This document shows, in pieces, positions 11,744 to 57,984 of a DNA stretch of 64,000 nt; within the stretch, counting starts at the first letter, position 1, and every line of letters begins with the position of its first letter. A program made the translations under genes and the position numbers. The stretch covers positions 103,664,001 to 103,728,000 of the forward strand of contig OZ287749.1 of NCBI GenBank assembly GCA_965649765.1, written 5' to 3'. Source of the DNA: Bispira polyomma (lineage: Eukaryota). The notes beneath the pieces are model-generated. The model did not search any database. It worked only from the letters and a program-made list of their open reading frames with translations, and was not told the DNA's origin.

Positions 11744-11908
11744 AGTAGTAGCGTATTGAAGGATTTGAGGAACCCCCCCGGAGGAGTCGTGCCACCCCCA
11801 TGATCATGATAAGCCCCCCGGAGGATCTTATAGACCACCCCAATGAGTAGAATCGTGATGAGCCCCACTGAAGATCTTATAAACCACCCCCATCAGTAGA
11901 ATTGTGTG
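11744..11908 (+). repeat. Polinton left TIR
   Basis: Reverse complement of 29034-29197; starts AGTAGTAG; internal ~49 bp subrepeats. Confidence 0.93.
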
Positions 11909-12930
11909 TAAAATCCTTGGGTGCTTGTTTGTACTCATTCAACTTCTAAAACAAGCTTACACCTTTTGCAGACAAGGTCACTTAGGTCTGGTCAGAAGCG
12001 TGCCAGCACACGATTCTACTCATGCCAAATAATCACCGGGTAAGTAGCCTTGTCTGCAACTTTAAAGGTAAATCACCATTAAGGTGTATTAGTTACAATC
12101 CTTTTGAATAACCCCTCCAGGGTGAATTGGTTATAATCCTTAGACCCCTCCCTTTTAGATCTTTTAAGGGTATAATAGAGGATTAAAACACCTTAGACCC
12201 AGTCTTGTGTATGTGAATCCTTTTAAAGTTAAAGCTAAATCTTTCAAAGTTAAAGCTAAAAGCAAATCCTTTAAGGTAAATACAACCTGCTCTACTGGAT
12301 AAAAAATACAATATACTGTTTTAAGTTGATTGATAAATGGTCTGTTTATTTAGTTGAAATACTCATGACCTGGAAAAGATCTCAAAACAGATTGAAAATC
12401 AAAGATCAGTTAAAATTCCTTTATATTACAGGATTATATGTTAAGATCTCTTAAAACACTAAAACAACTTTTACATAGTATGTTTATGCACACATTTATT
12501 TGATGTTCTTTAATAATGCAAAAAGAACTAACTACCCTTTAAATCTTTATTAAAAACTAACTTTTAAGTTTGGTTTTCTAAGTAAAACTACACTTAGAAA
12601 TCTTAGATGTTAGAAAACACACACTTTAATAGAGAGATTAGATTTTTGTATAAATACAAACACATTAAACACTTAACACATAATTATACAAATTGGTGTA
12701 GAAGCACACTACAGAATAAACATTTTATTTTATTGGTTGCTGGGGTTCTTAATTCTGAGTGAATTATTTCATTGGTTGGATTTCCAGTTGCTGTGTTTGT
12801 TAACAACTTGTAGTTTATAAAAGAACCGGTCAGCTTAAATTATATTCATCTGAAATAGGAATTTATTACAAATTGTGAGATAGTTTGGATAAATTTTGTG
12901 TTTGGATAACAACAACTTTTGTGAAAAGAA

Positions 12931-14642
12931 ATGGCTTCAATGTAAGTATGATGAAGTTATTTTGTTTAAATTTATTTAATAAAATTAATTATTGTAATAT
13001 TATAATTAGAAATTTAATACTTGAAACTTAATGAAAATGCGACATAACTATAATATATATATTTATATACTACACAATTATAATTTATTTACATCAATCA
13101 AATTGATAAATACTTCTTAGTTAAACTTCTTATAAAAAATCTTGAAAAAGTAAATTTGAATAAAAGGTTCTTATAGTCTCAAGATTTTATTTATTTTGTC
13201 GAGTCATGAAAAAAACTAATATGAATAAAAGACAATCAAGACTGATTATATTTAAAAACTAAACAAGATTTGTATATATTTATTTAGGAAGAGAAAAGCA
13301 GTAACAGAAGAGAAAGAGTTATTGACTAGGAAGCCGAAGAAAGCAAACAGGTAAATAACATTAGACCCATTTTGTTATTTAGTAGAAATATGTGTAAATA
13401 TAATTACTAATTTAGTAGAAATATGTATAAATATAACTACTAACAACACTATAAAATACAACATATAAATATTTTCACCATGAGTTTGATTGGAAACTCA
13501 CTAATTAAACTGTGAAAGAATTTCTGATTAAAAATAAGTAGTTAAATTTGAGTTTTAGAGCTTCTTGCTGTGGAAACTCTAGGAATATATATTATTTATT
13601 AATTTTTACATAAATTTAAAGAAAAATAACTTTGTCACTAAATTAAGTTGTTGATTCAGATGAAAAATGCACATTTGGTGTTATAACGTTAGAAAAGTAA
13701 AAAGCTGTCTTTGTTAAAATTGTAGTCTAATTTGAAAACAAATTGATGAAGTTCCGAGCGAGCAGGAAGACGCTAAAGAGGATTCGGACCTAGAGTGGGT
13801 GGAACCCTACACGCCTCTTAAAGCCCCCCAAAATCCTAAAAAGTCTAAACAACCCTCAAAACCCCGAAAACCTAAAATTATTCTCGAATCTGGTCCCTCC
13901 AATGTGGTAACTGGCTATCAAGCTTTAGCCACAATGGCTCAGTCCAGCATGCAGTGTTGTCAATAAACCTCTTCAGAAACAGATGTCTACAAGTACAACA
14001 ACATCAACAGCAACAAACAACAATGCAGCCACAAAGTGAGTATATTTAACATCTTAATTATGTGTAATTTTCTTTAATGATGAAATAAGTAATTCATAAT
14101 TTTTTTTTTTGTGTGAGTATATTCATAATCATGTAGGAAGATAAAATCTTGTAATTCGTGGAAATAAAACTATATTAATAGTGTTTAAGTTTATAATTGG
14201 GTTTTTAATTGAAAATAAACTTTGTATTTTGGTCTTATTCTAATTATAGTTACACCTAATACAGGAGAAAAGAAATAAGTATATAAAATTTTGTGTTTAT
14301 TAACAACTAATCAATTTTATTATATATTTTTTTTTTTTGTTACAGTTATGCGTTTGTGGAAATCATCAATGATCACTTCACCATGAAAAAAGACACAGGC
14401 GATGGTTAATACATGACTAAGGCTGTACCCTGAGCACTGCGAGGCTATACTCAGGAATAGATATAGCTTATGACGGTCTTAAAGCCTGTGTAGATACCAA
14501 CCATTCGTACATATCATTCAGGAGGTTTGAGAAGTTGTTCAAAGGAGAGATTTACCCACTCCCAGGAAAAGGATTTGTAGTGCAAAAAGATGAAATAGAT
14601 GTTTATGTACAAAACCTCAGAGACTTTTTAAACAAAATGTAG
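12931..14642 (+). pseudogene. Four-exon Polinton gene: NLS, low-complexity region and putative PC4-like C-terminus
   Basis: Exons 12931-12941, 13288-13350, 13726-14035, 14346-14642 with GT-AG introns of compatible phase; MASMKRKAVTEEKELLTRKPKK; YISFRRF..GEIYPLPGKGFVV; stops and frameshifts present; TATA-like TATAAAA near 12816. Confidence 0.62.
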
Positions 14643-14914
14643 ACAAAAAAAAAAAAAATGAACAATCCACAGGAGAAGTGTTTAGAGACTGTTAAATTCA
14701 CAAGATTGAGAAGAGACTGTTTTAAATATTATTATCAAAGTGTTTCTTTAGATGGACTTTCTTGAATATAAAATTTAGAATAAAAGAGACCGTTTAAATA
14801 TTACGCTAAAAGTGGTTTGTTTAAAAGCTTTTAAATATACAAGTTGAGTATCCTTGTTATACTCAGAAATATCATTTTATAATGTATTTAACAAATAAAT
14901 AAATATGAAGATAC

Positions 14915-15087
14915 CTATAAATCAGTTTCATGACTTCCGTAACTCATATTTTCCAAGAAAATTGGTGATGTCTCCCTCCTATTTCGATGTCTTTTGTGGT
15001 AGCATTTGAAGAGACACAAACTAACTCCAACACTAGTAAGGAATACCACGAAAGCCAATCCAGTTGTTAAAGCTATAACCCATTTAT
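14915..15087 (-). CDS. Terminal exon of a putative single-pass membrane protein
   Basis: Acceptor TTCTTTTGACAG, then WVIALTTGLAFVVFLTSVGVSLCLF followed by basic KCYHKRHRNRR; upstream exons not resolved. Confidence 0.45.
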
Positions 15088-15725
15088 CTGTCAAAAGAAA
15101 TATATTGACTGTTATATGTAAAATATCATTCCAAGCTCTTACCATAAAAGTTTGAATCTTAAAAAAATCTGAAACGTTTTGTTTATTCGAATATTTTAAA
15201 TATTTCTGTTTAACAGAACTCCAAAATGTTACATCAATCTTCAAATTACAAATATTACTATATATATACACACATATATATATAGCTGTGTGTTTGTGTG
15301 TGTGTGTGGTGTATGTATGTATTTGTTTTGGAGTAGAGACCAGGCAATACTTCTTCACTATTTTCACTTCTTGGTGAACTATAGAGGAATTTGACTTGTT
15401 TAAAACAAATTATAGTATAACATATATGTGAAAGTGTTTGATTTCTTTTTTTTACCAGTTTGTTGATAATGTGAACTGTGTGTTTGATGTTAGAACACAG
15501 CAAGATTATACATTTGACTGATTTTACTTCCTACATTTCAAAGGATTTGTGAATATTATCAGCTTGGGAATACATGAAATAAAGGATTACATTCAAAGAT
15601 AAACTGCAAAAGTAAGTGTATCTTTTGTTATTAAAACTATATAAAATAAACAACTTTTGTTTTGCAAAATAATTTAAAAGACCACTTGTATCTGAAAAGT
15701 CCATAATAACCAATTTACTTTCCAG

Positions 15726-15875
15726 ATGGCAGAGAATTATGCTAACCTTACTACTGTTGAAAGACAAGAACTTAGAGCTCAACCAAATGTGGATATGATA
15801 CAACAATGGGCTAAGACAAGATCCATCAACAATCACCCTGAGGTTCTTGAAAAGATCATTGAAAAATATGAAGAT
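15726..15875 (+). CDS. Isolated coding exon of unknown product (MAENYANLTT...KYED)
   Basis: Flanked by acceptor TTTCCAG and donor GTAAGT; an upstream donor GTAAGT near 15611. Confidence 0.4.
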
Positions 15876-16002
15876 GTAAGTAACTATCTTTGGTTTTATT
15901 TCAAATTTAACATTCATGTGTTTTAGTTGTATTGTTTGATTTTACTTAACTCTGTAAATTACTGATTTATTATTATCTTAAATTGTACAAAGTATTCATA
16001 TT

Positions 16003-16130
16003 AAATTTAGGAAAATGATAACTTCTTGAATCAAAACTTCTTCAAATTTTTGAAAAATCACAAATTCTTTAATCAAAACTTCTTGAAATTTAGGAAAATT
16101 ACAAGTACAGAATTAAAAATTCTTCAAATC
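16003..16130. repeat. ~41 bp tandem repeat, about 3 copies
   Basis: AAATTTAGGAAAAT..AATCAAAACTTCTT units. Confidence 0.6.
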
Positions 16131-16346
16131 ACCAACTTAAATAAATTTGAATATATACCTTAGTGTATGGAGATTCATACACAGTCTAATAAGACTTTAA
16201 AAGAAAATTTTGTTAATTACTAGGAAAATGTTAGAGAAACTATCCGTATCCAAGAAAAATGTAAAAGCTAGCATTGAAAACAAAAAAGTCTCAAAATTCT
16301 GTTAAATTAAAATTTACAGTTGGAAAAAAAAATTCCCTGGTGTAAT

Positions 16347-17732
16347 TCATTTTTGAAATAAACTTTCAAACGAATTACACCTTGGAATTTTATCTCTGAA
16401 AGAAACATGCTCATCCACTTGATCATTTTTCAGATTAGTGGGCTTTCTACTGTTCAATTTATTTGTCAGTCTGTTTGACGGTGTCTTTATGTTGTAATTA
16501 GCTTCAGTGTCTGTAGTAGTAGTAGTCTTCTTTAAACTGAAAATATAGAAAAAATAAATAATTGCTTTTTAAAATATCCAAATTTTAGATAAGTTATTTA
16601 CAATAACAAACTTCTTTTCGAGTCTATTATGTTGGAAAATGTTAACTGATAAATATGTAAACTCCTGGAGAAAGCTAAAGCTGATTATATTAAGTTAACA
16701 CTTATACCTTTTCCAAATTGACCAAATATAGGAAAGTGAAGTATCAGTTAAACTTTAAAGTTTGTTAAAATTTAACATTCCCTGTCAATAAGTTATATTT
16801 AGAATCAGTAATTTATTCATACTTTTAAACCACTGACCACTCTTCACGGTTAAAAGCATCTCTTGAAGTTGTAGTTTCAAAGGACTGTAGTACTTCAGGC
16901 TTCAATATTTTTGTCTGGTTCCTGGATGTTGGTTTAGTTGTAGGTCTTGACTTTTTGTACAGAGCTGGTGTTCTTAACTCGGGTACGATAGATACTTTGG
17001 AAGGTTCGTTGGAATCAAACAAAACAGATCTCCTTGCACGCATTCGAGCTTGGATTCTACCAATCCTGAAATATGAAATAATAAAACAAATATTTACTTA
17101 GAATTGTTTATGCAAATACTATCAATCGGAATATAAAATAACGAAAAAGTAACTACTTATGGTTATTGTGTGAAATATTACCTCTCTTCATCTCTTCCTG
17201 TAGTGTAATGCCCCTTCCAACACAGAAGATTATGCGTTTTTACATACTTCAGGGTTCTTCGAGCTCCTTCAATCATCAAACCTATGTATGTTAGAATAGC
17301 TATACCGATAATAATCCAATTTGGTATGTTTATTTTGTTAGAAATATCAATATCTGAATTATCCAAACTGTCGTCTTTGTTTTCCACAGAGTCGTTATCT
17401 GCATTTGTGTTGTGTTTACTGTCAGCCGAATTGTCTTGACAACCACCAATCATTTCTATACGAGTATAGTCAGGACAGTTTAATGTAACACTATCCACAA
17501 ATCTCACACTTTGTAAGTTCGGAAAAGCAAATGAAACTTTTTTTACATCCACAATAGAATCTGTAAACACGGCAGTTAAATATCTGACTGAGATAGAGAA
17601 AACTGTTCCCGAGTCTATTTTTTCACATTTTATACTCGCTAAATGACATCCACAACCCGTGGGACAATTCAATACCTATATTACAACACAGCATAAAATG
17701 AACAAAACATAAATATTCCTTTGGAAAACCAT
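16347..17732 (-). pseudogene. Three-exon type I membrane protein gene of the Polinton
   Basis: Exons 17732-17182, 17065-16823, 16536-16347 joined in frame by phase-2 GT-AG introns; signal peptide, CPTGCGC cap, TM WIIIGIAILTYIGLMI, Ser/Thr-rich tail; two in-frame stops. Confidence 0.7.
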
Positions 17733-17939
17733 CGTTAAATTAGATAAAATCAGTATATTGTTTTTATTTCTCCTCTAAACTTTTCTGCATAAACAGACCA
17801 AATTTCCCTCCAAAACATTTCGCTCTAAAAGTTTTCTGCGTTTACTTTAGCCGTTTAATAAGACAGTCTTGCGAAAAGTTACCTGATTATTGAAATTGTT
17901 TGTCTGATTTTTGTTGTATTTTTTTTTTCGTTGTTCCAG

Positions 17940-20900
17940 TTGTTAAGACAAGAGAACTGAGTCAATTCCTGGAAAAGAAAAGGCTATTGTTACTCGCAAC
18001 ACACTAGTTGAGGATCTGAAAGAAACTGTCAAAACAAGAGTGGACCTGCAAAAAGTGTGGTATAAAGTTTCAACAACTACAAAAATGGATAAAACATAAA
18101 AAGAGTTGTGAAGGATTATTGTGTACTCCTAAACTGAAAATTCAGTGTGTTAATTGTGAAAAATTCTTTTCTCAAAAGTCGAATCTAAAGAGACATCAGC
18201 TAAAATGTGACCTTACAGATGATAAAGAGCCTTCCTTTAAATGTGTGAAATATAAGAAGGTGTATACATTGAAATGTAATTATTTGAAGTATCTAAAGAG
18301 TTGCAAGTTATTAAATTCTGTCCCTACAAAAACCGTTTGTTGTGGTATTTGCAAGGAGAAATTTTTCAGTCGGGGGGATTTATACTCACATAGATTAAAT
18401 CAACACGGTGGTGGAGAGCAAAATATTGATGAAAGTGGTAATTCAGACAGATTTCAGCTAAATTCTCCACCGTGGTTGAATGAAGCTGGTGAAAATATAA
18501 ATCCAGAGTTAGAAAAAATTTATAAAACAAATGAATCACACATATTTGCTCCTCACCAAACAGATAGTGTTGTGAAAAAATATAATTTTCCCACTGAAAA
18601 TTTGAAAGGAGGGGTTGAAGAAATTATGAAACATATAGAAAAAATCAAAACTCAGCGTTCAAAATTAATATTAATTTAGGTTTTATTCTGAAGAACAAGA
18701 AATCAGGTAAATACAGATATTACATTCCTTATGCTAATTCTTATCTATTTCCGAAACCTTACATCATTTCCAGACATACAAATTTGAGAGTTTTGAAAAA
18801 CAAACTCAAGAAATTAAACCCCAGTGAATATATTTTGAATAACAGACCCAACAGTCGGTATATTCCAGAATATATAACCAATATAAATTTTGATGTGAGC
18901 CTAATGGATTACGTATTAGGTAATCCTTCAGACTTCCCAGAATTTGTGAAAAACTGTAGAAGCGTTTTTACATTTTTAAAGGTTCCAAAAACAGGAAAAA
19001 CATACACTGACAATATGTGTATTTTTCGTTGTCTTGCATTTCATGAGATAAAAAATAGAAAGAGTTTAGACACTTTAACTAGAAGGAAGGTTTTTGAATG
19101 GCTTGATTATAAATCTTACAAAGAACCAAAACGTTTTAAAGGGGTAACATTAGAAGATATTCCTGATTTAGAAAACTGTTTTCAAATCAATATTTCTGTT
19201 TTCCAGCTTTTAGAAAATTCATGTGTAATCACACATTATAATTCTAGAGGAACTTTTGACAAATCCATAGATTTAGATATGCAAAATCATCATCTATCAT
19301 ATCTAAATAATTTGAGCTTGTATGCCAAAAAGTATCAATGTAATAAATGTGAAATACATTTTAAGCACAGGACGTATCTATCCAAACATTTCAGAGTGTG
19401 TTCAAAGGTAACAAAATTCAAATTCCCTGGTGGTTTTCACACACCCAAGCATAATGTTTTTCAAGAACTTGAAAATTATAATATTTTTGTCGCAGCAGAA
19501 GACAGATTTTGTCCCTATTTTATCACTTTTGACTTTGAATCAATTCTTCAAAAAGAAAAGTTAAGTCAGAACTCAGAAGTAACAAAATTAATGTGGAGAG
19601 AAAAACACATTCCAATATCAGTCGGTGTATGGTCAAATGTTGAAAATTTTGAGGAAGGAAAATGTTTTGTAGATTTTAATATGGATAAATTATTAGCAAA
19701 AATGGTTGAATATATCGAACAGATTTCAAACAAAGTTAAGACTTGACAAATGTTCAAATATCATTCATGCTTTCAAGAACTAGATAGACTTTTAAATGAG
19801 TTACAATCACTTGAAACTCAAAAAGACATTGAACAAAATAGTGAAAATTTTGGAAGTGAAGAAGATGAAGTTCCTTCTGTTTCTTTTCAAAAAAGATTCA
19901 AGAAACAAAACTGTTTTGACAAAGCTATTGATAATTTAAGAAAAACTACTAATCTTCAAGTAGAATACAATAATTATAGTGACGTCAGCGAATTTGAAGA
20001 CGATATTTCTGAGAATGAGGAAGAAGAGAATTTTCTTGAAAATATCTTTCATGAAGAACCTCAAGCTTGTGAAGAAAACATAGCACAAATTGTGCCCTAG
20101 AACTCATTTCTTAAAAACTGTGAGAAAAAAAATCCAAACTTTGAAAGAGAGACTAGAGTCTTACTACGAATGCACACCAATCTTAGGCTTTAATTCTTTA
20201 AATTATGATCTTAATTTAGTCAAATCTAAACTGTGTAAACATTTGAAACTTGATGATACACAGAACAATTCTTTTACAGTGAAAAGAAATAATGCTTATT
20301 TAGCTATAACAACCAATACTTTGAAATTTTTAGATATCAGTCATTATATAGCCCCTGGATTTTGTTACTCTCAATTTTTAAAAAGTTATAATGTAACAGA
20401 GCAAAAAGGATACTTTGGTTATCAATATCTCTCAAAATCCGAAGTTCTTGAAGAAACAAATTTACCTCCTTATGAGGCCTTTTACAGTGATTTGAAATCT
20501 TGTAATGTTTTAGAACATGAGTTATTAGATTAGTATAAAACAAACAACATACAGTTAGTACAGCAAGATTTAGAATTAAACTCGTATGATAATCCCTCTA
20601 AATACTTGAATTCACCTATTTCTTATTTAAATTTGTCAACTGAAAAATGTTTAAAACTTTGTTGTTTGTGTGAAAAGATCCAATGTGTGTGTAATAGTAA
20701 GCCTCTTACTGGTTTTGATAATTATTTAGATTTATTAAAAACTTGGAAAGTGAATGATATGAAATCAGTTCAAGATTTGTTAGTCTGGTATAATTTGAAA
20801 GATATCAATCCGTTTACAGAAGCAGTTGAAAATTTACAAAAGCATTACAAAGAAAATAATATTGATCTTTTTAAAGATACAATTTTGGTGCCTGGAGTAG

Positions 20901-23040
20901 CTAGACAAATGCTATTTAAATCAAAAGATGCTAATTTTCAGTTATTTGATCGTCAAAATGCAGACCTTTACAGAAAAATAAAACAATCCATTTGTGGAGG
21001 TCCTTCTATAGTATTTACAAGAGCGATAAAAGAAGGACAGAAATTAAGATGGGTTTCAGAGTTGCTGGTGTATTTGGTAATGAAATATTTGAATTTTTAG
21101 GAGATTATTTTCATGCTTGTCCTAAATGCACTAACAAATTAAAGTTTAACAAACCAAAATCTTGGTTAATTAAACAAGAACAAAGATACCAGAGAACTAT
21201 TCTAAGAAAAGAATATTTAGAAAGTTTAGGATATACTGTAAATGAAATTTGGGAGTGTGAATATAAAGAAAAGTTTAAAAATTGTGTTTAACACATTCAA
21301 GAAAGATATTTACCCAAATATTACAGTTCTCATAAAAATGGTTTGTCATTAACAAAAGTATTAAAAGACATTAAAAACGGTGAATTATTTGGTTGTGCCG
21401 AAGTTGATATTGAGACTCCTTCTAAATGGACTGAAGATTTTGTTCAGTCGATCTCACCTCAGGAATATTACTCTGAATTTAGCCCTATATTTTGCACCAC
21501 TGACGTACCTATGAGTGTTATCGGTGAACATTTGACAAATCACATTCAAAATCATGATTTATCTATGGAGAGTAGGCAATTATTAGTAGGCGGGCTGAAA
21601 GCAAATAAGATTATGCTTGCTACACCTTTACTACAACGGTATTTAAAACACGGAATTTTAATAACTAGAATTTATGAAATCGTGGAATTTTCACCCATTC
21701 CTTGTTTCGCTCAATTTGTTTCTGACGTCACAGAAAGTCGCAGGGTCGGAGACAAATCTCCTCATTTAGCTTTAATAGGACAAACTGCAAAACTTTTGAA
21801 TAATTCCGCGTATGGATCATGTATTATGAATAAGGAAAACTTTATGAACATTAAATATGTGAAAGGTGACTCTCCAGCAAAAATTGAAATAAATAAACCA
21901 GAATTTCGAAAAGCTACTTTGTTAGATGAAAGATACTACGAGATAGAAACAGCCAAACGCAGAATTTGTTTAGATGTACCAATTCAAATAGGGTTCTTTA
22001 TTTTAAATTATGCAAAATTAAGTATGTTAGAATTTTACTATGATAATTTGTGTCAATACATTCCTAGAAATAGATTTGAGTGTATACAAATGGACACTGA
22101 TAGTTTGTATTTTGCAATAGCTGGAAAGTCTCTTGAAGACGTAGTTTACAAGCATAAAAAACATGAATTTCAAAGAAAAATCAAAAATAATTGTGGTGAT
22201 TTTGAATTAAAAGCTGATAAAGATCACTATTTCCCCCGAGATTGTTGTACTAAGCATAAACAATACGATTTAAGAACACCAGGTCTTTTCAAAAAAGAAA
22301 GTTCTGGAAAAGAAGTGCTTGCTTTATGTTCTAAAACATATGTACTAGCTGAAGAAATTGGATTCAAACTCTCCTGTAAAGGTGTTAATAAAAAATCAGT
22401 TAAAGATCCTGTCAAAATATTTCAAGACGTTTTGAAAACACAAAATGTCCAAACAGCTTTAAATAAAGGTTTTAGAGCAAAAGACAATTCGATGTTTACA
22501 TATTCTCAAGAAAGAATAGGTTTTAATTACTTTTACTATAAACACAGAGTTTGTGATGACGGAATACACACAGAACCTTTAGATTTGGTTTTGTCACTTT
22601 GGCCAAATTATGAAAGGCATGTGTTTTTCAGAGATTTTACTAATCCTTTATGTATTTCTCACAAATTTCCTTGTAGATATAATGAGAGAACGTTTGAATC
22701 AATAGAACATTTTATGTATTTTGCTTTTGCTCGTTTTTACAAAGAAAAATCTATTGCACTTTTAATTCAAAAATCATTCCAGAAAACCAAAATTCTACAA
22801 TTACTGAAGGATATAAAGATAAGTTTTATTTGGTTTGATAAACTGAGAGAGCTTTTACAATTGAGTCTAAAGGAAAAATATGAACATTGCAATTTGTTTA
22901 GACAAGCACTTGATAATATTTTGTTTCAAGAAATTATCTTTGCTGACAAGGATAAGTATTTAGGTTGTGGAATGGAATGTAGAATAGCTGAACTAACTGA
23001 TAGTGCAAAATACCCTGGTCAAAATCTACTGGACTGTTGA
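17940..23040 (+). pseudogene. polB: Protein-primed family B DNA polymerase with N-terminal zinc fingers, internal VSR-like nuclease and C-terminal NADAR-like domain
   Basis: TFDFES, GFNSLNYD, YNLKD exonuclease motifs; GGPSIVF; KLLNNSAYG; MDTDS; FEFLGDYFHAC..IWECE insert; split over several ORFs; motif A apparently deleted near 21050. Confidence 0.93.
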
Positions 23041-23456
23041 TAGAGTTAAAAAACACAAAAAAAAACATACACAATGTTTAGATATTTGTTTATTTATTTA
23101 CTTATATGTACATACAGTGTTTTCAATTATTTATTTATACAGTAGACTATTTATTTTGTACATATGTCTATAATGTTTATAACTATTTTGTATATAGCTT
23201 TACAGTATTATGTACATACTAGGAATATAATAAAATATATGAATCTAAACTCTGTGTTTATAAAAGAGATAACCCAATTGATCTTTGTAGAGTGGAGTTT
23301 ACCCTAAGGGGATTACACACCTATTAAAGATTTACCTTTAAAGATTTCACCTTTCACTACTAAACTGTCATGTTTAATCAGCTATTACTTCTATAAACCT
23401 CTATAAAGGGGTTAGGTTATTTAACTGATTGTAAAGAACACACTTTCATATGAACC

Positions 23457-23900
23457 TTAACCTGTGTGTTTATAAAAGAGATAAACCAACTGATCATTGT
23501 ACAACAAATCTTTTGAAAACATATTTAGAATGTTTGACATGGAAAAACCTCTAACTCTAAAATAACAAAAAAACAAGCAATATTGACCACACAAATTTGA
23601 AACATAGCTTTGACATCTCTTGACATTGAATTTGTACTTATGGCTTTGTAAGCTCATATACAACTTTAAATAGAGGTCTGGAAATTTACCAATAGGATCA
23701 AAATATTCAGTGACTTCATCATTGAGATTGTAAACCACAACCCAATGACTTCCTGCTTTCTCACTTGTGTCTAGATTGACTATGTAAAATCTAGGTTTTT
23801 TTGATTGTAAAGGTAATAAATCCTTTGGTAAGACTCCTCCATAACTTTCTGAAATGTAGGGGTCCTTTAACATATAGTGTTTTAATTGAAATGTGTTCAT
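23457..23900 (-). CDS. Adenain-like cysteine protease (capsid maturation)
   Basis: GSHWV, EYFD, Q..SNLCGQYC with His/Asp/Gln/Cys retained; intact 147 aa ORF. Confidence 0.92.
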   Translation of the reverse strand: MNTFQLKHYMLKDPYISESYGGVLPKDLLPLQSKKPRFYIVNLDTSEKAGSHWVVVYNLNDEVTEYFDPIGKFPDLYLKLYMSLQSHKYKFNVKRCQSYVSNLCGQYCLFFCYFRVRGFSMSNILNMFSKDLLYNDQLVYLFYKHTG

Positions 23901-24630
23901 TATTGAATTTTGATATTTCTAGCTTTATCAACCAATATCATTTCTGGAAAAATTGAATAAGCAATCACCATTAAAGATCTACTAGTAGCAGAACCGAACT
24001 TGAGCTGTAACCTTGTGTGTCCTTTTTTAAGTTTTCCCATTAACTCATTGTCTGTTTCTCCTTGAATGTCAAAAACGAAAAGACCATATCCGTTTGAATA
24101 ATCAGCTCTACTAATAAAATTTCCAGCATGGTGTGGGTATTTATTTGAGAATAAAGTAAGGTATGACGAGACATAAAATGTTAGATTTCCAAATAGGGTA
24201 AAGAGCTGGAGCATATGTTAAAGCTTCATTATGAGCTAAGATTATAGAATCAGTGACTTTCACATGACAAGCTTTAAAAACAGCTTCTGTTATTGTTACT
24301 TTGTAAGCTTCTGAATCTCTTGTCATCATTGAAAATTTATCAGAAGAAGGGAATAATTTAATTATTATTTTAACCCCATTTAAAATTGGTCTTTCTTGCT
24401 GAGATATATCCATATGAATAGGTCCTTCTAAAGTTACTTCTTTACCAGAAGCTGTAAAAGATGTTCTGGCTGTTAAACCAGGGTTATTTCCAGGTGGGGT
24501 TGCGTCCATAACGCCTGAATCCTTGTAATATAATTCACTTTGAAGTTGAGATTCTTTTACCTCCATTCCGTATTTTAAAAGCACATCAAAAATTGATTTA
24601 TAAGGGTAGTTTACACCTACATCCGGAGAA
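23900..24630 (-). pseudogene. Major capsid protein (double jelly-roll/hexon-like), internally deleted
   Basis: NYPYK..LLKYG..ESQLQSELYYKD, GPIHMD..Q..ILNGV, AHNEAL..PALYP, GYGLFVFD..GHTRLQLKF; N-terminus and part of the middle missing. Confidence 0.85.
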
Positions 24631-24767
24631 ACAACTTGTGGGCGTTATCATTTTAATTTCACCGCTTCCTGCTTGAGGTTTAAACACATATATTCTTCGT
24701 TGATATGGAATATTTCCATTAGCCATGTCTGTAAAATGTTTTGTCCAATAATTATTATCAGTCATTT

Positions 24768-25168
24768 CTATGGAATTTTTTTTCTTAAACCTAATGTACA
24801 AGTAGTTGTCTTAATTGGGTCTGTTGGAAATTTCCCTGTAACAGTGTCTTTTATATATATTCTAACACGGTCTACAGTTATTACAGTAATAGGTTTTAAA
24901 TAGAATTTATTAAATTCCAGGTTTTTTATGTAAAAACACGTCTCAATACTGGGGCCATAGAATCTGTAATATAGCTATATTCTACTATATCACAATATAT
25001 ATAAACTTCGTTTTGTAGAGTGTTATCCCAAGATATATCTAACAAACTACATTCCCAAGTTTTGTTGAATTCAAATGCTTTTGGTAAATCAACAATAAAA
25101 TCATACCAGAGATTTTTAGGGTATTCTTTGGGAGAATCCAATGAAGATAAAAATAGATATTGCATCAT
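24768..25168 (-). pseudogene. Minor capsid (penton-like) protein, short or disrupted
   Basis: FLSSLDS..YPKN..DFIVDLP..WECSLLDI, YIYCDIV..PVLRR, then KPIT..RIYIKD after a frameshift; ATGA overlap with the integrase stop. Confidence 0.7.
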
Positions 25169-26290
25169 GAAAATTTTTTTATTTCATTTTCATCTATCCA
25201 AGTATCAAATTTAGATCCCCAACCTTTCCAACGAACAAGTAGTCTTATTTTACCTTTAATTTTTTTTCTGAACTATCTTTTCTATATCATACTGAGTGTC
25301 TTGACTTACATTAACCTTTTGAAGTTCAGAGGTAGAAAACTTAGCAATTATAGGCTCATTATTGAAATCTTTTACTTCATATTTCTGAATACCTTGATTT
25401 AAGTCCCTTGTGGTTATAATGAATAATTCATCAGTCCATTTTTGATCTGATTCTTTGTTATAGACAATTTGTAGTTTTGTCAAGCGAACAATATCACCTA
25501 ATTTGAACTTGTATAAAGGGGTATTTCTTTGTGATTTAGGTAAAGCGGTTTTTTTCTTGAATTTGACTATTTTAGGTAGTTTTTTTTCATACTGGATTTT
25601 CCATAAAATAGGGTTTCCAACTTCAAGAGCTTCTTTAGGGGACATTTTAATTGTACTATGATATGATTTATTATAACTATCAGTTAAGTTTTGTAAAACA
25701 TCAATCCATTTCCTAGTTTGTTATATTCCATATATCTAGCTATTTTCATTTTTAAGGTGCGAATAACTCGTATAATTAGCTTTGGAGTGTTCCGAAGTTC
25801 CAATGTGTTTCACATTATTTTCTCTGATGAATTTATCAGCTAATGCTAAGTACTCTGTCCCACGGTCACTTCTCAGGACTAATGGTTTGTTTTCTTTAAA
25901 AACAAGTTTCAACGCGTTCACCGTTTCTTTTGAAGTCAATGTTTTAAGTGGTACCGTGTACAAATAATGAGATAAAATATCTATAAACACGGCTATGTAT
26001 TTGTAACCTTCGTTTTGTGAAGCAAACTTTTCATAATGGGCTGTATCTGTGTCTTGCATATATCCCTTAATGGGTACTATAACTTTAGGTCTCTTGAATT
26101 TTCTGATAACTTTCCTATATAGAGTGTAGCTATTTTGTTTATTTAACCAATTTTGAATAAATCCTTTAGAAATATCGGACCTTTCCTTTTTAACTAAATT
26201 ATAAAACTTTTGTAATCCTGCAAAAGAACTTGGGTTTTCTGGATTAAAATACATTTTTTGCAGATAATCTTCTTTCTCAGAATCAGCCAT
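25165..26290 (-). pseudogene. Retroviral-like (rve) integrase with C-terminal chromodomain
   Basis: YFNPENPSSFAG, QDTD, FIDILS, SDRGTEY; FKLGDIVR..KWTDELF; YDIEKIV..LLVRWKGWGSKFDTW; frameshift at the third catalytic (Glu) motif. Confidence 0.9.
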
Positions 26291-26654
26291 ATTGCTTTAG
26301 TAATTAGTCCAGCTATTCTTCCAATTGTTTTTGTTTAAGGGTTTTGTTTCAGTTAAAAGTCTGTTTGTGTTTGGTTCTGCAGGCGGAGGTGGTGTTAGTG
26401 GTTAAATTGATGATTTATTTAAATCTTTTGTTTCAGAATGTTGAGAAATTTCACTGTGTATGTTTTCATTCTGTTTGTCTTCAATTTCAGTTTTCAAGTC
26501 TTTGTTTGAACTACCCCCATTTTTTGTTAATAACGAGTATATTTATCATAAGGTATAAGAACCATTTTTCTCATTTTATTAACGTTAATAGCTGCTTTTT
26601 AAACTCAGCCAAAAGTTTCAAAATATGAATATGAATTTCTGTTTTTTAATGTTT

Positions 26655-26876
26655 TTAATATTTCTGCTGGCTATTTTTTTTCAATAACGCCTTCTTCTTG
26701 TTAACAATGTTTCTATATTTAGTTGACAATGGAATATTCAACAAATTATGACTTATTTCACTTATAAGAGTAACTTGTTCAGGAGAAATTGTATCTAACA
26801 AAGCTTTTGCTTGGTTAATAGGTGAAGTTAACACTAAAATAATATATTCTTTATGTTTTCTAACATAAGAAATCAT
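26655..26876 (-). CDS. Conserved small Polinton protein, unknown function
   Basis: QAKALL..QV..ISEI..NLLNIPL pattern and position downstream of the ATPase, as recalled for Polintons. Confidence 0.55.
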   Translation of the reverse strand: MISYVRKHKEYIILVLTSPINQAKALLDTISPEQVTLISEISHNLLNIPLSTKYRNIVNKKKALLKKNSQQKY

Positions 26877-26926
26877 TGTCGCTCATAATCCCCTAAGTCA
26901 ACACTGAATGAGACTTCAAAACACTG

Positions 26927-27568
26927 TCATTGATATACTATTGTAGGTAATTCGGTTGGAAAAATATTGTTTCTTAATCTGTAAGCTTCGTTACTTATAG
27001 GGGATAAATCAAGAATCAAATAACCATAGGGTTTTGCGAGAGCGTCAATATAAGCTTGTTTCAACAAGCTTTTCATACCGATTTGTTGTGATAAAATATT
27101 TACTTGTTGAAGATTTCTGGGGTTCTTTAACAAAACGGTATAAGCTGTATTCAAAGTAAGAGTTCTGGAACATTTACCTTGATAAAACAAATTTTGATTT
27201 ATGTAAATAACTGTAATATTGTTGTGGTGACTTATTTGGGTGAATAACTTTTCAGCTTCTTTGCTGTTGGCTACTTCATGTTGAAGGTCATCTAAGCATA
27301 TTATATTATGATTTGAGTCAAATACAGTTCTTATTTTTTCCAAATTTGGTAAACCTTCCACAAATTCTATGTTTAAATTTTTTTCCATGTCATCAAATAT
27401 AGGTTGCCAAACAGAATAACAATAAAGAATTTTTGTAGGTGGATTTTCAAACATAATATCTTTTGCTTTTAACAATTTATACAACCAAGTAGTTTTACCA
27501 CTACCAGTCATTCCTGATATCATCCATGTTGAAGGACACTCAAATTTAACAATCTTCCATGTTAACAC
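26927..27568 (-). CDS. A32/FtsK-like DNA packaging ATPase
   Basis: Walker A GMTGSGKT, Walker B IICLDD, LFTQISHH..QNLF, PYGYLILDL. Confidence 0.93.
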   Translation of the reverse strand: MLTWKIVKFECPSTWMISGMTGSGKTTWLYKLLKAKDIMFENPPTKILYCYSVWQPIFDDMEKNLNIEFVEGLPNLEKIRTVFDSNHNIICLDDLQHEVANSKEAEKLFTQISHHNNITVIYINQNLFYQGKCSRTLTLNTAYTVLLKNPRNLQQVNILSQQIGMKSLLKQAYIDALAKPYGYLILDLSPISNEAYRLRNNIFPTELPTIVYQ

Positions 27569-27737
27569 ATGTACACCAAATAATTAATGAAGAGAATTAC
27601 TTTTATTAGAAAATAATATATAACTATAACCACACAAAACCAAAACTACAATATTTCATTTAATCAAATATTTATACAAACTAAAATCACACAAATCATA
27701 CCAAGGAAAAGTCTGAGTGTATTTTAAAGTTTATAAA

Positions 27738-28271
27738 CTATTCACTGTTCTTTGGTGTTTCTTTATCCGAGTCTTCTGATTCTTTTTCCTTGACTTCTGA
27801 ATCTTGTTCTTCTTATCCATCAGGCTGAGAACATTGAGGACATGAGAAAAAATCTTCTTGGTTTTAATGTGTATAGAAAATCTGGGGGTGTTCTTTTTCG
27901 ATTTGATTAAAAATATCCAATAACCTAAACCACTGAACGTATTTCAAAGATATACCATCCAATGTTGCTAGTTGTTGACCTCCAAATTTGAAGAATCTAC
28001 GAATTTGTATGCATTAAAATGGAGACTGTAAATAAGCAAAAACATCGTTTCCAAGACAAACATAAAAATTTGTTGGTTCTTTTTTATGACATAACCTGAT
28101 GAGTTTGCTTGATAATTGTTCTTTACTTTTTATCAATTTAAAATATTTAGAGTTATTTATACACAATTCCTTGTTGTTTTTGTGTTTCAACACTATTTTA
28201 AAATCACAAATTGCTGATCCTCTAATTTCTACTGTCTTCTCTTCATCACTGTCGATTGTGTAGTCAGCCAT
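27738..28271 (-). pseudogene. PC4-like ssDNA-binding protein
   Basis: Past the stop at 28014 the frame continues CIQIRRFFKFGGQQLATLDGISLKYVQWFRL, matching the PC4 IR..GISL...QW..L pattern. Confidence 0.6.
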
Positions 28272-28279
28272 AGTTATTT

Positions 28280-28729
28280 TCAGTAAAAATCTAGGAGGAT
28301 CACTTGGAAATAAATACTGAATAAAAGCACAATTTCCTTTTGTGTTTCTTTTATGTTCGAAAAAGACGTCTTCAAAAGAATCCCATTGATGTAAAATCAC
28401 CTTACACCATGCACATTTACAGCTATCTCCTATTCCTGTGTAAAGAAATCCAGCTTTAGCTAATTGTTCAGGACGAACTGGATGACATTTAGGCCATGTC
28501 TTAAAAGTTTCAATTCTCTTGTTGTATTTATAAAAATATTCTTTCCCAAAGAAAAATTCTGGGCATGTATCCCTTTGACCTTCTAAAACTATAGAAGATC
28601 CTCTGCTTTCTTTCTCCCAACAAGATTTAGAAGAAGAAGAAGCTGGTGTACAGAGTGAAAATCCAACTGTAACAGCTTTATTACAAATAACCCATCACTG
28701 GCTTAGTCTGAAACGTCTGTTCTTTCCAT
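28280..28729 (-). pseudogene. BIR (inhibitor-of-apoptosis) domain protein
   Basis: RIETFKTWP..RPEQLAKAGFLYTGIGDSCKCAWCKVILHQWDSFEDVFFEHKRNTKGNCAF, canonical BIR CX2CX16HX7C; 5' end disrupted. Confidence 0.88.
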
Positions 28730-29033
28730 GATTCTGTAAATTTATCAATGAATTTTGTTTTTCTTTAGAAATAAACAAAAAAATAAATCGTAAGTTCTAC
28801 AATATTTTTGGTTAGTTTTTAACCAATCAAATTATAGCAATTGTAATTATATAATAAAATTTATTATTATTCAAAGATGTGAATTTTGATGCACGATTCA
28901 TTAAACCTAAATAAAGTAAAATACATATGAATAGACTAAAATCTTTGGGTGCTTGTTTGTACTCATTCAACTTCTAAAACAAGCTTACACCTTTGCAGAC
29001 AAGGTCACTTAGGTCTGGTCAGAAGCGTGCCGG

Positions 29034-29197
29034 CACACGATTCTACTCACGGGGGTGGTTTATAAGATCTTCAGGGGGGCTCATCACGATTCTACTCATT
29101 GGGGTGGTCTATAAGATCCTCCGGGGGACTTATCATGATCATGGGGGTGGCACGACTTCTCCGGGGGGTTCCTCAAATCCTTCAATACGCTACTACT
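29034..29197 (-). repeat. Polinton right TIR
   Basis: Reverse complement of 11744-11908; ends CTACTACT. Confidence 0.93.
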
Positions 29198-31329
29198 TCC
29201 CTCCAGATTCCTTTTTCTCTGAATAGATGTATATGAGCATTTAACATCAAATAATTTTACCAAGGGAAGAATGGCCTGGCGGCCATATCATGATGATACC
29301 AGTACAAAGCAAGCTACTGACAAGTCAGAAAATAGTAAACCAGACAAAGAGGGATTTTTTTGTACAGCTACCTATCAGCACAAATATTCGTCGTCAGTGG
29401 TTGAAAGATATGGGCTAAACGTCTGATACAAAAACGGCTCCAAAATAGTGAACCATCAATAAAATCGAACAATCGAAGGGGTGTCAAAATAGGTACAGTG
29501 TCTAGTATCTTCTATTTTTGCTCACGCCTTATAAAAATGCTACGTAAAAATTTTCGCAGCTAGTGAGAAAATGACTGCCAAATAGAATTCAAAGTACCTT
29601 TTCAAATGCGATTCTATTTAATCCTAACAACAATGAAAGTCATGTCTTCACATATTTTAATATATTATTATATGGCGAATATCGTAGAAAAAGCAATTGT
29701 TTGAAGTCCATTTTGTATGGTTTTTCACGGTATTGTCACTGCAAACTCAGACAAGCGATGTAGTTGTTTCCGGAATATCACACAAGGTTCTAGCAACGTC
29801 TTGTGTATTGATTAACAAAGAGTGAGATACCTTTCACCGACATCATTTGTCTGGAAATCCCCAGATTGTTGTCTTGTCAATATTACATTAAAATAAGTCA
29901 AGATATGTTAGAAACTGTGATTAAAATTCACTTCGATTTTGTGAAATATTTTACAATGGACTTTAAACAATTGCTTATATCTATGAAGTAGAAGGTTTAG
30001 AGCGATTTCCTGAAATAACGTATGTTATTTCTAATTTTATTCAATTTTTATATGTTTTTTGTGGTATTTTCACTGCAAACCCAGACAAGTGATGTTGCTG
30101 TTTCCGGAAATATTAAAGAAGAGATCTCGATTGTCGGAAAGTTCTAGCAACGTATTGTGCATTGATTAACTAAGAGTAAACCTAGTCTTTTGCGTCTTCG
30201 AGAGAATAAATTAGGAAGAGGTAGCGATCGTTTCACTGCGCATACTCGGAGGATCACATGACCTTACTACGTACTTTGTACTACATACTCCACCTTTATT
30301 CACAAAAATAACGAATACTATCTATAGGAAAGCATGATAGGAAAGCATGATTATGCCAATAAGCATTGGCATAATTATGCAAAAAGGGGAATGAATATAT
30401 ATCAAATATCCCATGTCAATAAGCATGTTGAATGGATTCATTTAAATATATATCCTTCAAATCTGTGTTGTAAGTGCAAATCTTACAATAATTAATTTTT
30501 CATGCAGTGTAACAATGTGAGTGCCTAATAGAATATGTTTCATAATAAACAATGAAAGTAATACAAAGGCAATTGATAAAATCTACTAATTTGCAGTCTA
30601 TTACTATTACATTTTAAATTTTGAAATCTATTACTATTACTTTCAAATTTCAGCAATCTTATTACATTTTTATTACTTCTATATGGCTGAGATACATAAT
30701 ACCCAGAGGACACACAGCTGAGATATTTAGAATACAATAGATGACATAAATATAGCAAATGATAATTAATTTCACAATACTATTTGTTACATTTTGTATA
30801 CAGACCACTAGAATACATACTATATTCTATAGTATGGTTCTAAAAGGGATCTCACAGAATGTAAATCTTGGTCTAAATCAATCCTTCAAAGTCTCTTTTG
30901 AATAAAAATGGCAATTTATTTATATTTACTTACAATTAAACCTAAAAACTTAAAACCAGTACTAATACACAAATTCCACTATTTTCTAATACAATGTGAT
31001 AAAAATGGGGTTTACAGAGTTTTACAATCAGTATATAGTTTGGTAGAAAGACTGCATACATAACATGTATGATTAAAATTAACTTTTTACACATAAATTT
31101 ATAGAGCATGGATCATTTAGATTTTCATAAGGAACTTGATTATATCTTTTATTACTATATTGACATGAGTAATTATTAATTATTATTGTTGTTCTTAGTA
31201 TTGTTTTTCTCCAAATATACAAATGTCAATGTCATATATTGTTGCAATTGAAAAAAGCCCCTTTTAAGAATATTGCATTTAAATAGCAACATAAAAATAA
31301 TATGAATTGTGTGTTGGTATTACCTATAT

Positions 31330-35339: not shown

Positions 35340-35993
35340 GGCCTTTAAACTCACCACTGGACACATAACATGATTATTTAATTCAGGGAGTTTAACCATG
35401 TGGACTTGATCAGGAGATTGTAAATTCTTTGCCAATTTCACGAATATGGACTCCAGGAAACTGAAAACTCACATCAGAACGACATAAATGTTTCTGGGGA
35501 TCAAAGTGATTAGAAGAAATCGGAGCAATATTGGAGATTCGCAAAAATCCATAAAAGGCTACCAAAAAGGCAGATCTATAAGTCCACGTGCTTTCATACA
35601 TCCCGCAAGAGCGAGAAATGTCTCTAATCTGGTTCACTGAAAAAATTCCCTTAGGACGAGATTTCACCACTCCTTCATACAGTAGTGCCTTAACAAACCT
35701 CCTGACAACCAAATTGTCCCAAGACTGTGTTGGCCAATTAAAACAACCAAACTGAAACTTCACAGCAGAGATGTAATTATTAATCACACAATATGATAAA
35801 CTTTGTGAGGCTAAAAACTCAAGAAAAGGTAAAACAGAGGGGACTGACCCCCATGACTGTACATCATGATATAACATAAAGGCCACAAAGACCTTGAACT
35901 GTTTATCGTATTGTCTATGTGTAGATGATATAATAGCATTCTGGGAGCGGTCAAGAGCAGAAACAACCGCCCCTCTTAGACTAGGAACTATAC
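35340..35993 (-). pseudogene. Tyrosine recombinase of element 2 (C-terminus lost)
   Basis: STHRQY..FVAF, AFYGFLRISN, LCRSDV, MCPV. Confidence 0.85.
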
Positions 35994-36018
35994 CTAAAAC
36001 ACAAGAAAAACAACACAC

Positions 36019-57915: not shown

Positions 57916-57984
57916 TTCTTATTATTGTTAAATTGTTCTGTCTTATATTATCAGTAACAATAGATACTATGCTTTGTGTTGTAG

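What the first reader, a model, noticed from the sequence alone, without database searches (positions are those of the whole stretch)
22621..23060. Polinton DNA polymerase carries a C-terminal NADAR-like domain
Seen: after the polymerase C-terminus (DGIHTEPL) the ORF continues ~140 aa: VFF..NPL..F..YNERTFESIEHF..A..I..W..L..L.EKY..FRQAL..II.ADKDKYLGCG..YPGQNLL. A one-base shift at the end gives GLLIELK. This matches by eye the NADAR/YbiA pattern (S.EH, KF..L..LL, D..WG.G, G.N.LG..L). Established: NADAR enzymes cleave N-glycosidic bonds, and some remove ADP-ribose from guanine in DNA; clams are known to have guanine-specific DNA ADP-ribosyltransferases. Inference: a replication-coupled counter-defence module that clears ADP-ribosylated DNA, or an inactive binding derivative, since the W and VE positions have diverged.
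Basis: partly seen in the sequence, partly recalled or inferred. Interest (0 to 1): 0.82.

Follow-up and report, generated by a model that had tools for sequence, protein, structure and literature searches.

The report
Polinton polymerase with disabled NADAR tail
A virus-like element in an animal genome has its DNA-copying enzyme fused to a domain with the predicted fold of NADAR enzymes, which cut ADP-ribose off DNA; this family has replaced two of the three catalytic residues but keeps the domain under selection, so it likely serves as a non-catalytic add-on, while two distant relatives keep a predicted active version.

Summary
The fusion is real. The window holds a broken 17.5-kb Polinton whose polymerase gene ends in a NADAR-family domain (Pfam E=5e-6; sister copies pass the cut-off; the model of a sister copy matches only YbiA and Phytophthora NADAR, TM 0.71/0.74). 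At least 150 matches exist in this genome, some in unbroken 1,799-1,823-residue polymerases. 41 of 120 full-length relatives from other sources carry the domain or an eroded 130-residue remnant. It is probably not an enzyme here: the lysine and second acid that papers show are needed for hydrolysis are replaced in 77 of 77 copies. It is still under purifying selection (dN/dS 0.13-0.24 in the 11 closer between-subfamily pairs), has almost no linker, and appears confidently placed on the polymerase (pTM 0.88). Two distant fusions keep the full catalytic set. All fused domains form one branch beside the NADARs of zinc-knuckle LINE ORF1 proteins, which abound intact in this genome. Best reading: one capture of an active enzyme, later reused as a non-catalytic accessory. 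No host DNA ADP-ribosyltransferase was found, but those searches were uninformative. I found no paper on this fusion. The scan had noted only giant-virus RPB7-NADAR fusions.

The parts
11744..11908 (.). left terminal inverted repeat of the Polinton, starting AGTAGT
   Evidence: arms 96-100% complementary to 29034-29198
29034..29197 (.). right terminal inverted repeat; the 6-bp flanks of the two ends do not match (no target-site duplication seen)
18032..23040 (+). broken gene of the protein-primed family B DNA polymerase (C2H2 fingers, polymerase with VSR-like insert, NADAR-like tail); 4 stops and 3 frame changes before the final break
   Evidence: tblastn of an unbroken natural copy, 74-84% identity; Pfam; model of the sister copy matches phi29 polymerase
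21292..23040 (+). last open piece (582 aa): polymerase C-terminal half plus NADAR-like domain in one frame
22558..22599 (+). polymerase C-terminal motif and the very short junction (about 5 residues); tail-less relatives usually end a few to 50 residues after this motif
22600..23040 (+). NADAR-fold domain, catalytically degenerate; the frame ends inside its last motif
22705..22707 (+). Glu equivalent to 8BAU E43: kept
22726..22728 (+). site of catalytic K50: Phe here (F/L/Y/M in 77 of 77 copies)
22939..22941 (+). site of catalytic E125: Phe here (F 61, Y 15, gap 1 of 77)
22960..22962 (+). site of pyrophosphate-binding W133: Leu here (L 76, F 1 of 77)
23457..23918 (-). adenovirus-type protease ORF
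   Evidence: Peptidase_C5 E=0.007, under cut-off
23900..24644 (-). pieces of a probable major capsid gene (label recalled from Polinton gene order, no family hit)
   Evidence: 43-53% identical to a 431-aa ORF beside the polymerase of another Polinton family, L136; no Pfam hit
25256..26296 (-). retroviral-type integrase, broken in two
   Evidence: rve E=2.8e-8
26927..27583 (-). P-loop ATPase, probably the packaging ATPase
   Evidence: P-loop families, Pox_A32 weak at E=0.06
28014..28694 (-). BIR (inhibitor of apoptosis) domain ORF inside the element
   Evidence: BIR E=2.3e-17

Best explanation
A Polinton DNA polymerase is fused in frame to a NADAR-family domain that has lost two of three catalytic residues but is kept under purifying selection; it likely works as a non-catalytic accessory, predicted to pack against the polymerase's C-terminal end, rather than as an ADP-ribose eraser. 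Steps: (1, shown) the fusion, the family assignment and the residue losses. (2, shown) selection on the domain between subfamilies about as strong as on the polymerase. (3, inferred from trees) one ancient capture of an active YbiA-type NADAR, most likely from the ORF1 of a zinc-knuckle (Tx1-like) LINE; it would at first have removed ADP-ribose from bases of the template, and two sampled lineages still keep the full site. (4, inferred) in most lineages the chemistry was lost while the fold stayed, because it had become part of the polymerase body; it would stabilise the thumb region or extend the surface that holds DNA during strand-displacement synthesis. The window copy itself is a dead fossil.
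For: Residue map to 8BAU through the intact fusion P0010 (E=1.9e-12, all site residues aligned). K50 and E125 are replaced in 77 of 77 genomic copies. E125 is also replaced or absent in 10 of 10 copies of other Polinton families of this genome and in 20 of 20 full-length foreign tails. Papers (passages): loss of the K95 and D171 equivalents abolishes efficient hydrolysis while E88A, the one residue kept here, had a minor effect in vitro (PMC11543638); even E-to-D or E-to-Q at the second acid kills SCO5665 (PMC12945103). The ADP-ribose phosphate contacts R93 and W133 are also replaced, and the basic K75/R79 patch has no counterpart, which argues against simple binding. dN/dS is 0.13-0.24 for the domain against 0.14-0.20 for the polymerase in the 11 closer between-subfamily pairs (0.21-0.53 in 4 distant, near-saturated pairs), but 0.51-0.77 in 3 within-family pairs, the pattern of post-insertion decay. 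The model of polymerase plus tail (781 aa) has pTM 0.88 and pLDDT above 90 across the junction; an unplaced tail would cap pTM near 0.79-0.81 (my arithmetic). 20 relatives have eroded to about 130 residues, most losing the helices that carry the site but keeping the entry motif and the C-terminal core motif. Columns kept across 61 tails are mainly structural Pro/Trp/Gly/Asn/Leu.
Against: No activity, binding or expression was measured. 79 of 145 related polymerases have no such tail, so it is not needed by this polymerase type in general. The tails are only mildly basic (net 0 to +9 in 10 own copies; -6 to +15 in 31 foreign ones), so DNA binding is not indicated by charge. pTM is an indirect measure of domain placement, and no interface could be inspected. 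This subfamily keeps an almost invariant Glu three residues before the lost E125 (74 of 77) plus E43, W89 and mostly D130, so a remodelled site cannot be excluded. The trees are unrooted, the homologues were retrieved with a Polinton-built profile, and the bootstrap had not converged; on the polymerase tree the two intact fusions are partial rows with weak placement.
Confidence: 0.55

Rival explanations
1. The tail is a reader or decoy: it no longer cuts, but it still binds ADP-ribosylated DNA (or a host ADP-ribosyltransferase) and shields or helps bypass the lesion at the fork.
For: E43, W89 and mostly D130 are kept (76, 77 and 64 of 77); purifying selection; fixed place on the replicase; the same genome holds at least 150 (2,147 candidates) NADAR matches, intact and on LINE ORF1s where checked, which suggests a standing pressure from ADP-ribosylation.
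Against: K50, R93 and W133, which hold the pyrophosphate in 8BAU, are replaced, and a bulky F/Y sits where the distal ribose is bound; most 130-residue remnants have lost half of the pocket.
Confidence: 0.2
2. The tail is still an active N-glycosidase with a rebuilt site (the subfamily-invariant Glu three residues upstream replacing E125) and clears ADP-ribosylated bases during replication: the first reader's main idea.
For: NADAR subfamilies do move this acid: DarT1-associated NADARs use an Asp two residues away and phage enzymes a His. The upstream Glu is kept in 74 of 77 copies. Two foreign fusions keep the canonical site.
Against: The essential Lys has no basic substitute in 77 of 77 copies. 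The upstream Glu occurs in only 4 of 31 foreign fusions, and an odd offset on a strand points to the other face (inference). The pattern of loss differs from lineage to lineage, as expected for relaxed catalysis.
Confidence: 0.15
3. The tail is a neutral passenger that is decaying and has no role.
For: Progressive erosion from 160 to 130 residues, at least one clean loss (P0251) and many tail-less polymerases.
Against: dN/dS of 0.13-0.24 between closer subfamilies, close to the polymerase; length and core motifs are kept over lineages only 25-45% identical; tail presence needs just 3 changes on a tree of 145.
Confidence: 0.05

Closest known systems
YbiA-subfamily NADAR hydrolases (E. coli YbiA 2B3W; Phytophthora NADAR 8BAU; PMC11543638, passages)
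   Same: Predicted fold (TM 0.71/0.74), Pfam family, E43, W89, D130 and the terminal G-x-N-x-L-G motif.
   Different: K50, E125, R93 and W133 are replaced; the domain is fused to a DNA polymerase; it has a longer loop between the last two motifs, shared with LINE ORF1 NADARs.
Mollusc/marine-nematode pPolB2 with VSR insert (Jeong et al., 10.1101/2023.08.22.554363) and TP-vOTU-EXO-PALM polymerases (PMC11161782); Beta adintovirus PolB (PMC8502044); passages only
   Same: Polinton anatomy, a VSR-like insert inside the polymerase (weak REase_MTES_1575 hit), and named full-length relatives from molluscs.
   Different: A C-terminal NADAR domain is not mentioned in the main text of any of the three (0 occurrences); the named mollusc relatives are tail-less.
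NADAR domains in retrotransposons: Ectocarpus Gypsy Pol and oyster Tx1 LINE ORF1 (PMC12477816, passages)
   Same: A mobile element carrying a YbiA-type NADAR; zinc-knuckle ORF1 NADARs are the nearest branch to the Polinton domains.
   Different: There the domain sits on an RNA-stage protein and is intact in 10 of 10 LINE copies checked here; here it sits on a DNA polymerase and is mostly dead.
Phage AdfN/gp30.3 anti-DarTG1 NADARs (PMC11825919) and NADARs in RNA-virus polyproteins and giant viruses (PMC9503650); passages
   Same: Viral NADARs used, or proposed, as counter-defence against ADP-ribosylation; the model for the intact fusions P0010 and P0094.
   Different: AdfN is a free, active enzyme with a known opposing toxin; here the domain is fused, mostly inactive, and no opposing host enzyme is identified. 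Polintons are not mentioned in PMC9503650 (0 occurrences).

Membership tests
NADAR superfamily (fold) | Match to Pfam PF08719 over most of the profile, above the curated cut-off | tested here: met
   The window copy scores 27.2 bits, under 35.1, and lacks its last helix; sister copies pass: 37.9 bits, 55.1 bits; 13 of 13 members match
NADAR superfamily (fold) | YbiA fold: five core helices with two small sheets | tested here: met
   Model pLDDT 93.8; Foldseek probability 1.0 to 2B3W and 8BAU, next hit E=1.8. The alignment behind the model held only Polinton-derived rows, two of them intact NADARs
Active NADAR glycohydrolase | Glu at E43/E88 | tested here: met
   76 of 77 copies
Active NADAR glycohydrolase | Lys (or Arg) at K50/K95 | tested here: not met
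   0 of 77; F 39, L 29, Y 5, M 4
Active NADAR glycohydrolase | Glu, Asp or His at E125/D171 | tested here: not met
   0 of 77; F 61, Y 15, gap 1
Active NADAR glycohydrolase | Pyrophosphate contacts W89, R93, D130, W133 | tested here: not met
   W89 77 of 77 and D130 64 of 77 kept; R93 and W133 0 of 77
Active NADAR glycohydrolase | Hydrolysis of base-linked ADP-ribose | not testable with these tools
   needs an assay
Polinton/Maverick | Terminal inverted repeats starting AGTAGT around 15-25 kb (criterion recalled) | tested here: met
   11744-29197, 17.5 kb
Polinton/Maverick | Protein-primed family B polymerase | tested here: met
   Best structural hit phi29 polymerase, E=6.9e-6; many relatives carry PF03175
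Polinton/Maverick | Retroviral-type integrase, ATPase, adenovirus-type protease | tested here: met
   rve E=2.8e-8; P-loop hits; Peptidase_C5 E=0.007, weak
Polinton/Maverick | Double jelly-roll capsid gene | tested here: inconclusive
   A conserved ORF is at the expected place but has no family hit; the Atlas look-up did not complete
Polinton/Maverick | 6-bp target-site duplication (criterion recalled) | tested here: not met
   Flanks differ at the two ends of this old copy; the left flank is a CA-rich repeat. Other copies were not checked
pPolB2 / Beta polymerase with VSR insert | VSR-like nuclease insert within the polymerase | tested here: inconclusive
   REase_MTES_1575 E=0.0005-0.015, under cut-off; three relatives are named as VSR endonuclease by JGI
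pPolB2 / Beta polymerase with VSR insert | N-terminal terminal-protein and vOTU domains | not tested
   the N-terminal 1,040 residues were not folded

The most novel reading that the evidence does not exclude
A large branch of animal Polinton viruses took an ADP-ribose eraser from a LINE retrotransposon and welded it to their replicase. Together with the hundreds to thousands of intact NADARs on LINE ORF1 proteins in the same genome, this marks an undiscovered animal defence that ADP-ribosylates the bases of mobile-element DNA or RNA. The intact fusions erase the mark at the fork and the dead ones read or shield it.
Probability: 0.25. Interest if true: 0.85.

Novelty: new variant of a known kind. 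Interest (0 to 1): 0.58.

Why it matters
It adds a domain, not found in my paper searches, to a well-studied viral polymerase architecture, and it is common: a third of the 120 closest full-length relatives carry it. It gives a visible series from intact enzyme to pseudo-enzyme to eroded remnant on one replicase. It also points to domain exchange between two unrelated classes of mobile element, LINEs and Polintons, that share hosts. If the intact versions prove active, a DNA replicase would carry its own base-ADP-ribose eraser, and one would have a handle for finding the host enzyme that puts the mark on, which is an open question outside bacteria, butterflies and clams. For the family in this window the more exciting reading (active counter-defence) is unlikely.

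Tried and rejected
Direct PDB sequence searches with the window domain or the 13-copy profile found nothing significant; the 37-row profile reached 8BAU and 2B3W. A word-seeded search for full-length proteins with the tail alone found none among 466 candidates; this was a sensitivity limit, since searches found them. Host DNA ADP-ribosyltransferase: Scabin-like and DarT family searches of the genome were blank, but their controls were silent too, so this shows nothing. Genomic context of the intact fusions: no locus was found in IMG/VR or JGI metagenomes, so their Polinton setting rests on the upstream polymerase match alone. Sequencing runs: three holders from one study, no RNA holder listed; no reads were laid. 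The complex-prediction tool and the VIA structural aligner were not available, so there is no verdict on a polymerase-tail interface. A mixture-model tree on 162 rows did not finish. Rejected: programmed frameshifting at the 3' end (sister copies read through in one frame); chance match or chance read-through; recent capture from this genome's own LINEs (the Polinton domains group with foreign Polinton domains). P0025 was flagged as intact in one alignment but aligns differently in another, so it is counted as ambiguous. Of the two papers holding both 'NADAR' and 'Polinton', one is a false hit on an institute name; the other (PMC13469147, a yeast transposon paper) was seen in the listing only.

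Full report
Setting. The finding lies in a 17.5-kb element bounded by inverted repeats at 11744-11908 and 29034-29197 that start with AGTAGT. The element holds a family B polymerase gene on the plus strand. On the minus strand lie an adenovirus-type protease, a probable capsid gene, an rve integrase, a P-loop ATPase and a BIR-domain gene. It is a Polinton/Maverick in a 1.04-Gb genome of 75 contigs, taken to be an animal's from its relatives; the host was not identified. This copy is a fossil: against an unbroken natural copy its polymerase gene shows 4 stops and 3 frame changes, and the last frame ends at 23040 inside the final motif of the tail.

Observation. The last ORF (21292-23040) continues about 150 residues past the polymerase end motif. 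The tail matches only Pfam NADAR (E=5.3e-6, positions 10-151 of 163, under cut-off). The ESM Atlas feature search also returned NADAR clusters first (0.93, with a recognition score just under the tool's reliability line). The genome search scored 150 of 654 candidates as matches, at 36-100% identity. I examined 90 loci: the 30 best and 60 picked by hand down the list, favouring stop-free matches. Polymerase sequence lies upstream in 87, the junction is in one ORF in 74, the whole domain is in one ORF in 77, and both hold in 65. Five copies have unbroken ORFs of 1,799-1,823 residues. 13 of 13 aligned copies hit NADAR, best E=2e-16. The AlphaFold model of one tail (pLDDT 93.8) matches only 2B3W and 8BAU at E<=0.001 (TM 0.71 and 0.74).

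Spread. A profile search of 1.84 billion representatives gave 2,501 proteins at E<=0.001; the best 150 were listed. Of these and 3 earlier hits, 29 of 153 have polymerase sequence upstream by BLAST, and a few more by the end motif. A search with the polymerase part listed the best 120 of 383 full-length relatives. 27 of 120 have a NADAR tail by profile. 14 more have a tail of about 130 residues that matches non-Polinton NADARs by profile comparison (probability 96.7%, E=3.7e-10). One ends in DUF4326, and 78 end within 90 residues. On a polymerase tree of 145 rows, tail presence needs 3 changes against 48 for shuffled labels (FastTree), so one deep event with rare later loss.

Catalytic state. 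Passages of PMC11543638 name E43, K50 and E125 of the Phytophthora enzyme (E88, K95, D171 in E. coli C7) as the catalytic set and K50, R79, W89, R93, D130 and W133 as pyrophosphate contacts; K95 and D171 are needed, while E88A had a minor effect in vitro. PMC12945103 shows that E-to-D or E-to-Q at the second acid abolishes activity. I placed these sites through the printed alignments to 8BAU; the chain index is offset by two from the paper's numbers, which is my inference. In the 77 whole genomic domains E43 is kept in 76, W89 in 77 and D130 in 64, while K50, R93, E125 and W133 are kept in none. Ten copies of other Polinton families in this genome and 20 full-length foreign tails also all lack E125. 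Of 31 foreign fusions with a near-complete domain, two (P0010, P0094) clearly keep all three catalytic residues and one is ambiguous. P0010 matches 8BAU directly at E=1.9e-12. Against the dead reading, this subfamily keeps a Glu three residues before E125 in 74 of 77 copies, though only 4 of 31 foreign fusions do.

Selection and placement. For the 11 closer between-subfamily pairs dN/dS (Nei-Gojobori) is 0.13-0.24 in the tail and 0.14-0.20 in the polymerase. In 4 more distant pairs the tail gives 0.21-0.53 with synonymous sites near saturation. In 3 within-family pairs it is 0.51-0.77 (18 pairs in all, not independent). The domain therefore mattered to replicating elements after the catalytic residues were gone. 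The junction is about five residues. The model of 618 polymerase residues plus the tail has pTM 0.88 and pLDDT above 90 across the junction, and it matches phi29 polymerase, YbiA and 8BAU. With the polymerase part scored near perfect, an unplaced tail would give about 0.79-0.81, so the placement is moderately confident.

Origin. The genome is rich in NADARs: 150 scored of 2,147 candidates, all above cut-off. Those checked lie at the end of ORFs of about 410-450 residues followed by endonuclease and reverse transcriptase ORFs, that is LINE ORF1 proteins of two builds, one with zinc knuckles; 10 of 10 of the coiled-coil build keep the catalytic set. PMC12477816 (passages) already reports NADARs in oyster Tx1 ORF1 and brown-algal Gypsy elements. 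On domain trees all polymerase-fused domains lie on one side of a strong branch (41 rows, 98; 17 rows, 100/96, bootstrap not converged). The intact fusions sit on short branches near that split, zinc-knuckle ORF1 NADARs come next, and other NADARs lie beyond a further branch (97/90). This fits one capture of an active enzyme from a Tx1-like LINE or a shared source. The direction is inferred: the trees have no independent root, and the sample was drawn with a Polinton profile. The second tree used 56 rows chosen by hand.

Mechanism. Most likely the ancestral fusion removed ADP-ribose from bases at the replication fork, as phage AdfN does in trans (PMC11825919, passages). Most lineages, including this one, then kept the fold as a non-catalytic part of the polymerase (0.55). 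A reader or decoy role (0.2), a rebuilt active site (0.15) and a neutral remnant (0.05) are the rivals. No opposing host enzyme was found, but both searches had silent controls.

Literature. Eight library searches were run; those pairing NADAR, YbiA or DUF1768 with Polinton, Maverick, adintovirus or DNA polymerase showed no report of this fusion. 'NADAR' does not occur in the main text of four Polinton papers, and 'Polinton' does not occur in the survey of viral NAD-ADPr systems. I saw passages only, and the first 10,000 characters of PMC11125620. No supplements were read; alignments or domain tables there, and Repbase entries, could mention the domain. Earlier notes of this scan describe NADAR fused to the RPB7 subunit of giant-virus RNA polymerases, some with lost catalytic residues (unchecked by me); none covers this fusion.

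Verdict. Observation confirmed; interpretation partly supported; a new variant of a known kind; interest 0.58.

Noticed in passing
G000 genome-wide; L137, L138, L141, L142, L143: At least 150 (2,147 candidates) NADAR matches; those checked are catalytically intact and end LINE ORF1 proteins of two builds (coiled-coil type and zinc-knuckle type), followed by endonuclease/reverse transcriptase ORFs. Noted for oyster Tx1 in PMC12477816; the scale and the second build may deserve their own study.
   Followed up: partly
P0174, residues 1489-1569: A tail-less-branch Polinton polymerase ends in DUF4326 (E=1.9e-19), another domain that PMC9503650 places in ADP-ribose networks; a single sequence, possibly a read-through into a neighbouring gene.
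   Followed up: no
P0208, P0224-P0226, P0233, P0236, P0239, P0247-P0249, P0255, P0256, P0259, P0262: Eroded NADAR remnants of about 130 residues with their own conserved motifs, mostly missed by Pfam; some belong to clusters of 50-250 members.
   Followed up: partly
window 28014-28694 (-): BIR/IAP anti-apoptosis gene inside the Polinton; such genes are reported for adintoviruses.
   Followed up: no
window 14915-17675 (-): Short ORFs with predicted membrane-like hydrophobic stretches (for example 17178-17675, 14915-15409) and no Pfam hit, upstream of the polymerase.
   Followed up: no
L133:1525-5670 (+): A 1,382-residue ORF with two NADAR-matching stretches and a repetitive middle; context not resolved.
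   Followed up: no
L136, L177-L196: Several further Polinton families in the same genome, each with a differently degenerated NADAR tail.
   Followed up: partly
window 5194-8156 (-), 35410-39301 (-), 54309-58958 (+): Decayed reverse-transcriptase elements flank the Polinton (RVT_1 E=1.4e-10 twice; weak RVT_3).
   Followed up: no
P0004, P0015, P0016, P0017: Very large proteins (1,580-4,635 residues) with 2-7 NADAR repeats and no other clear Pfam domain.
   Followed up: no
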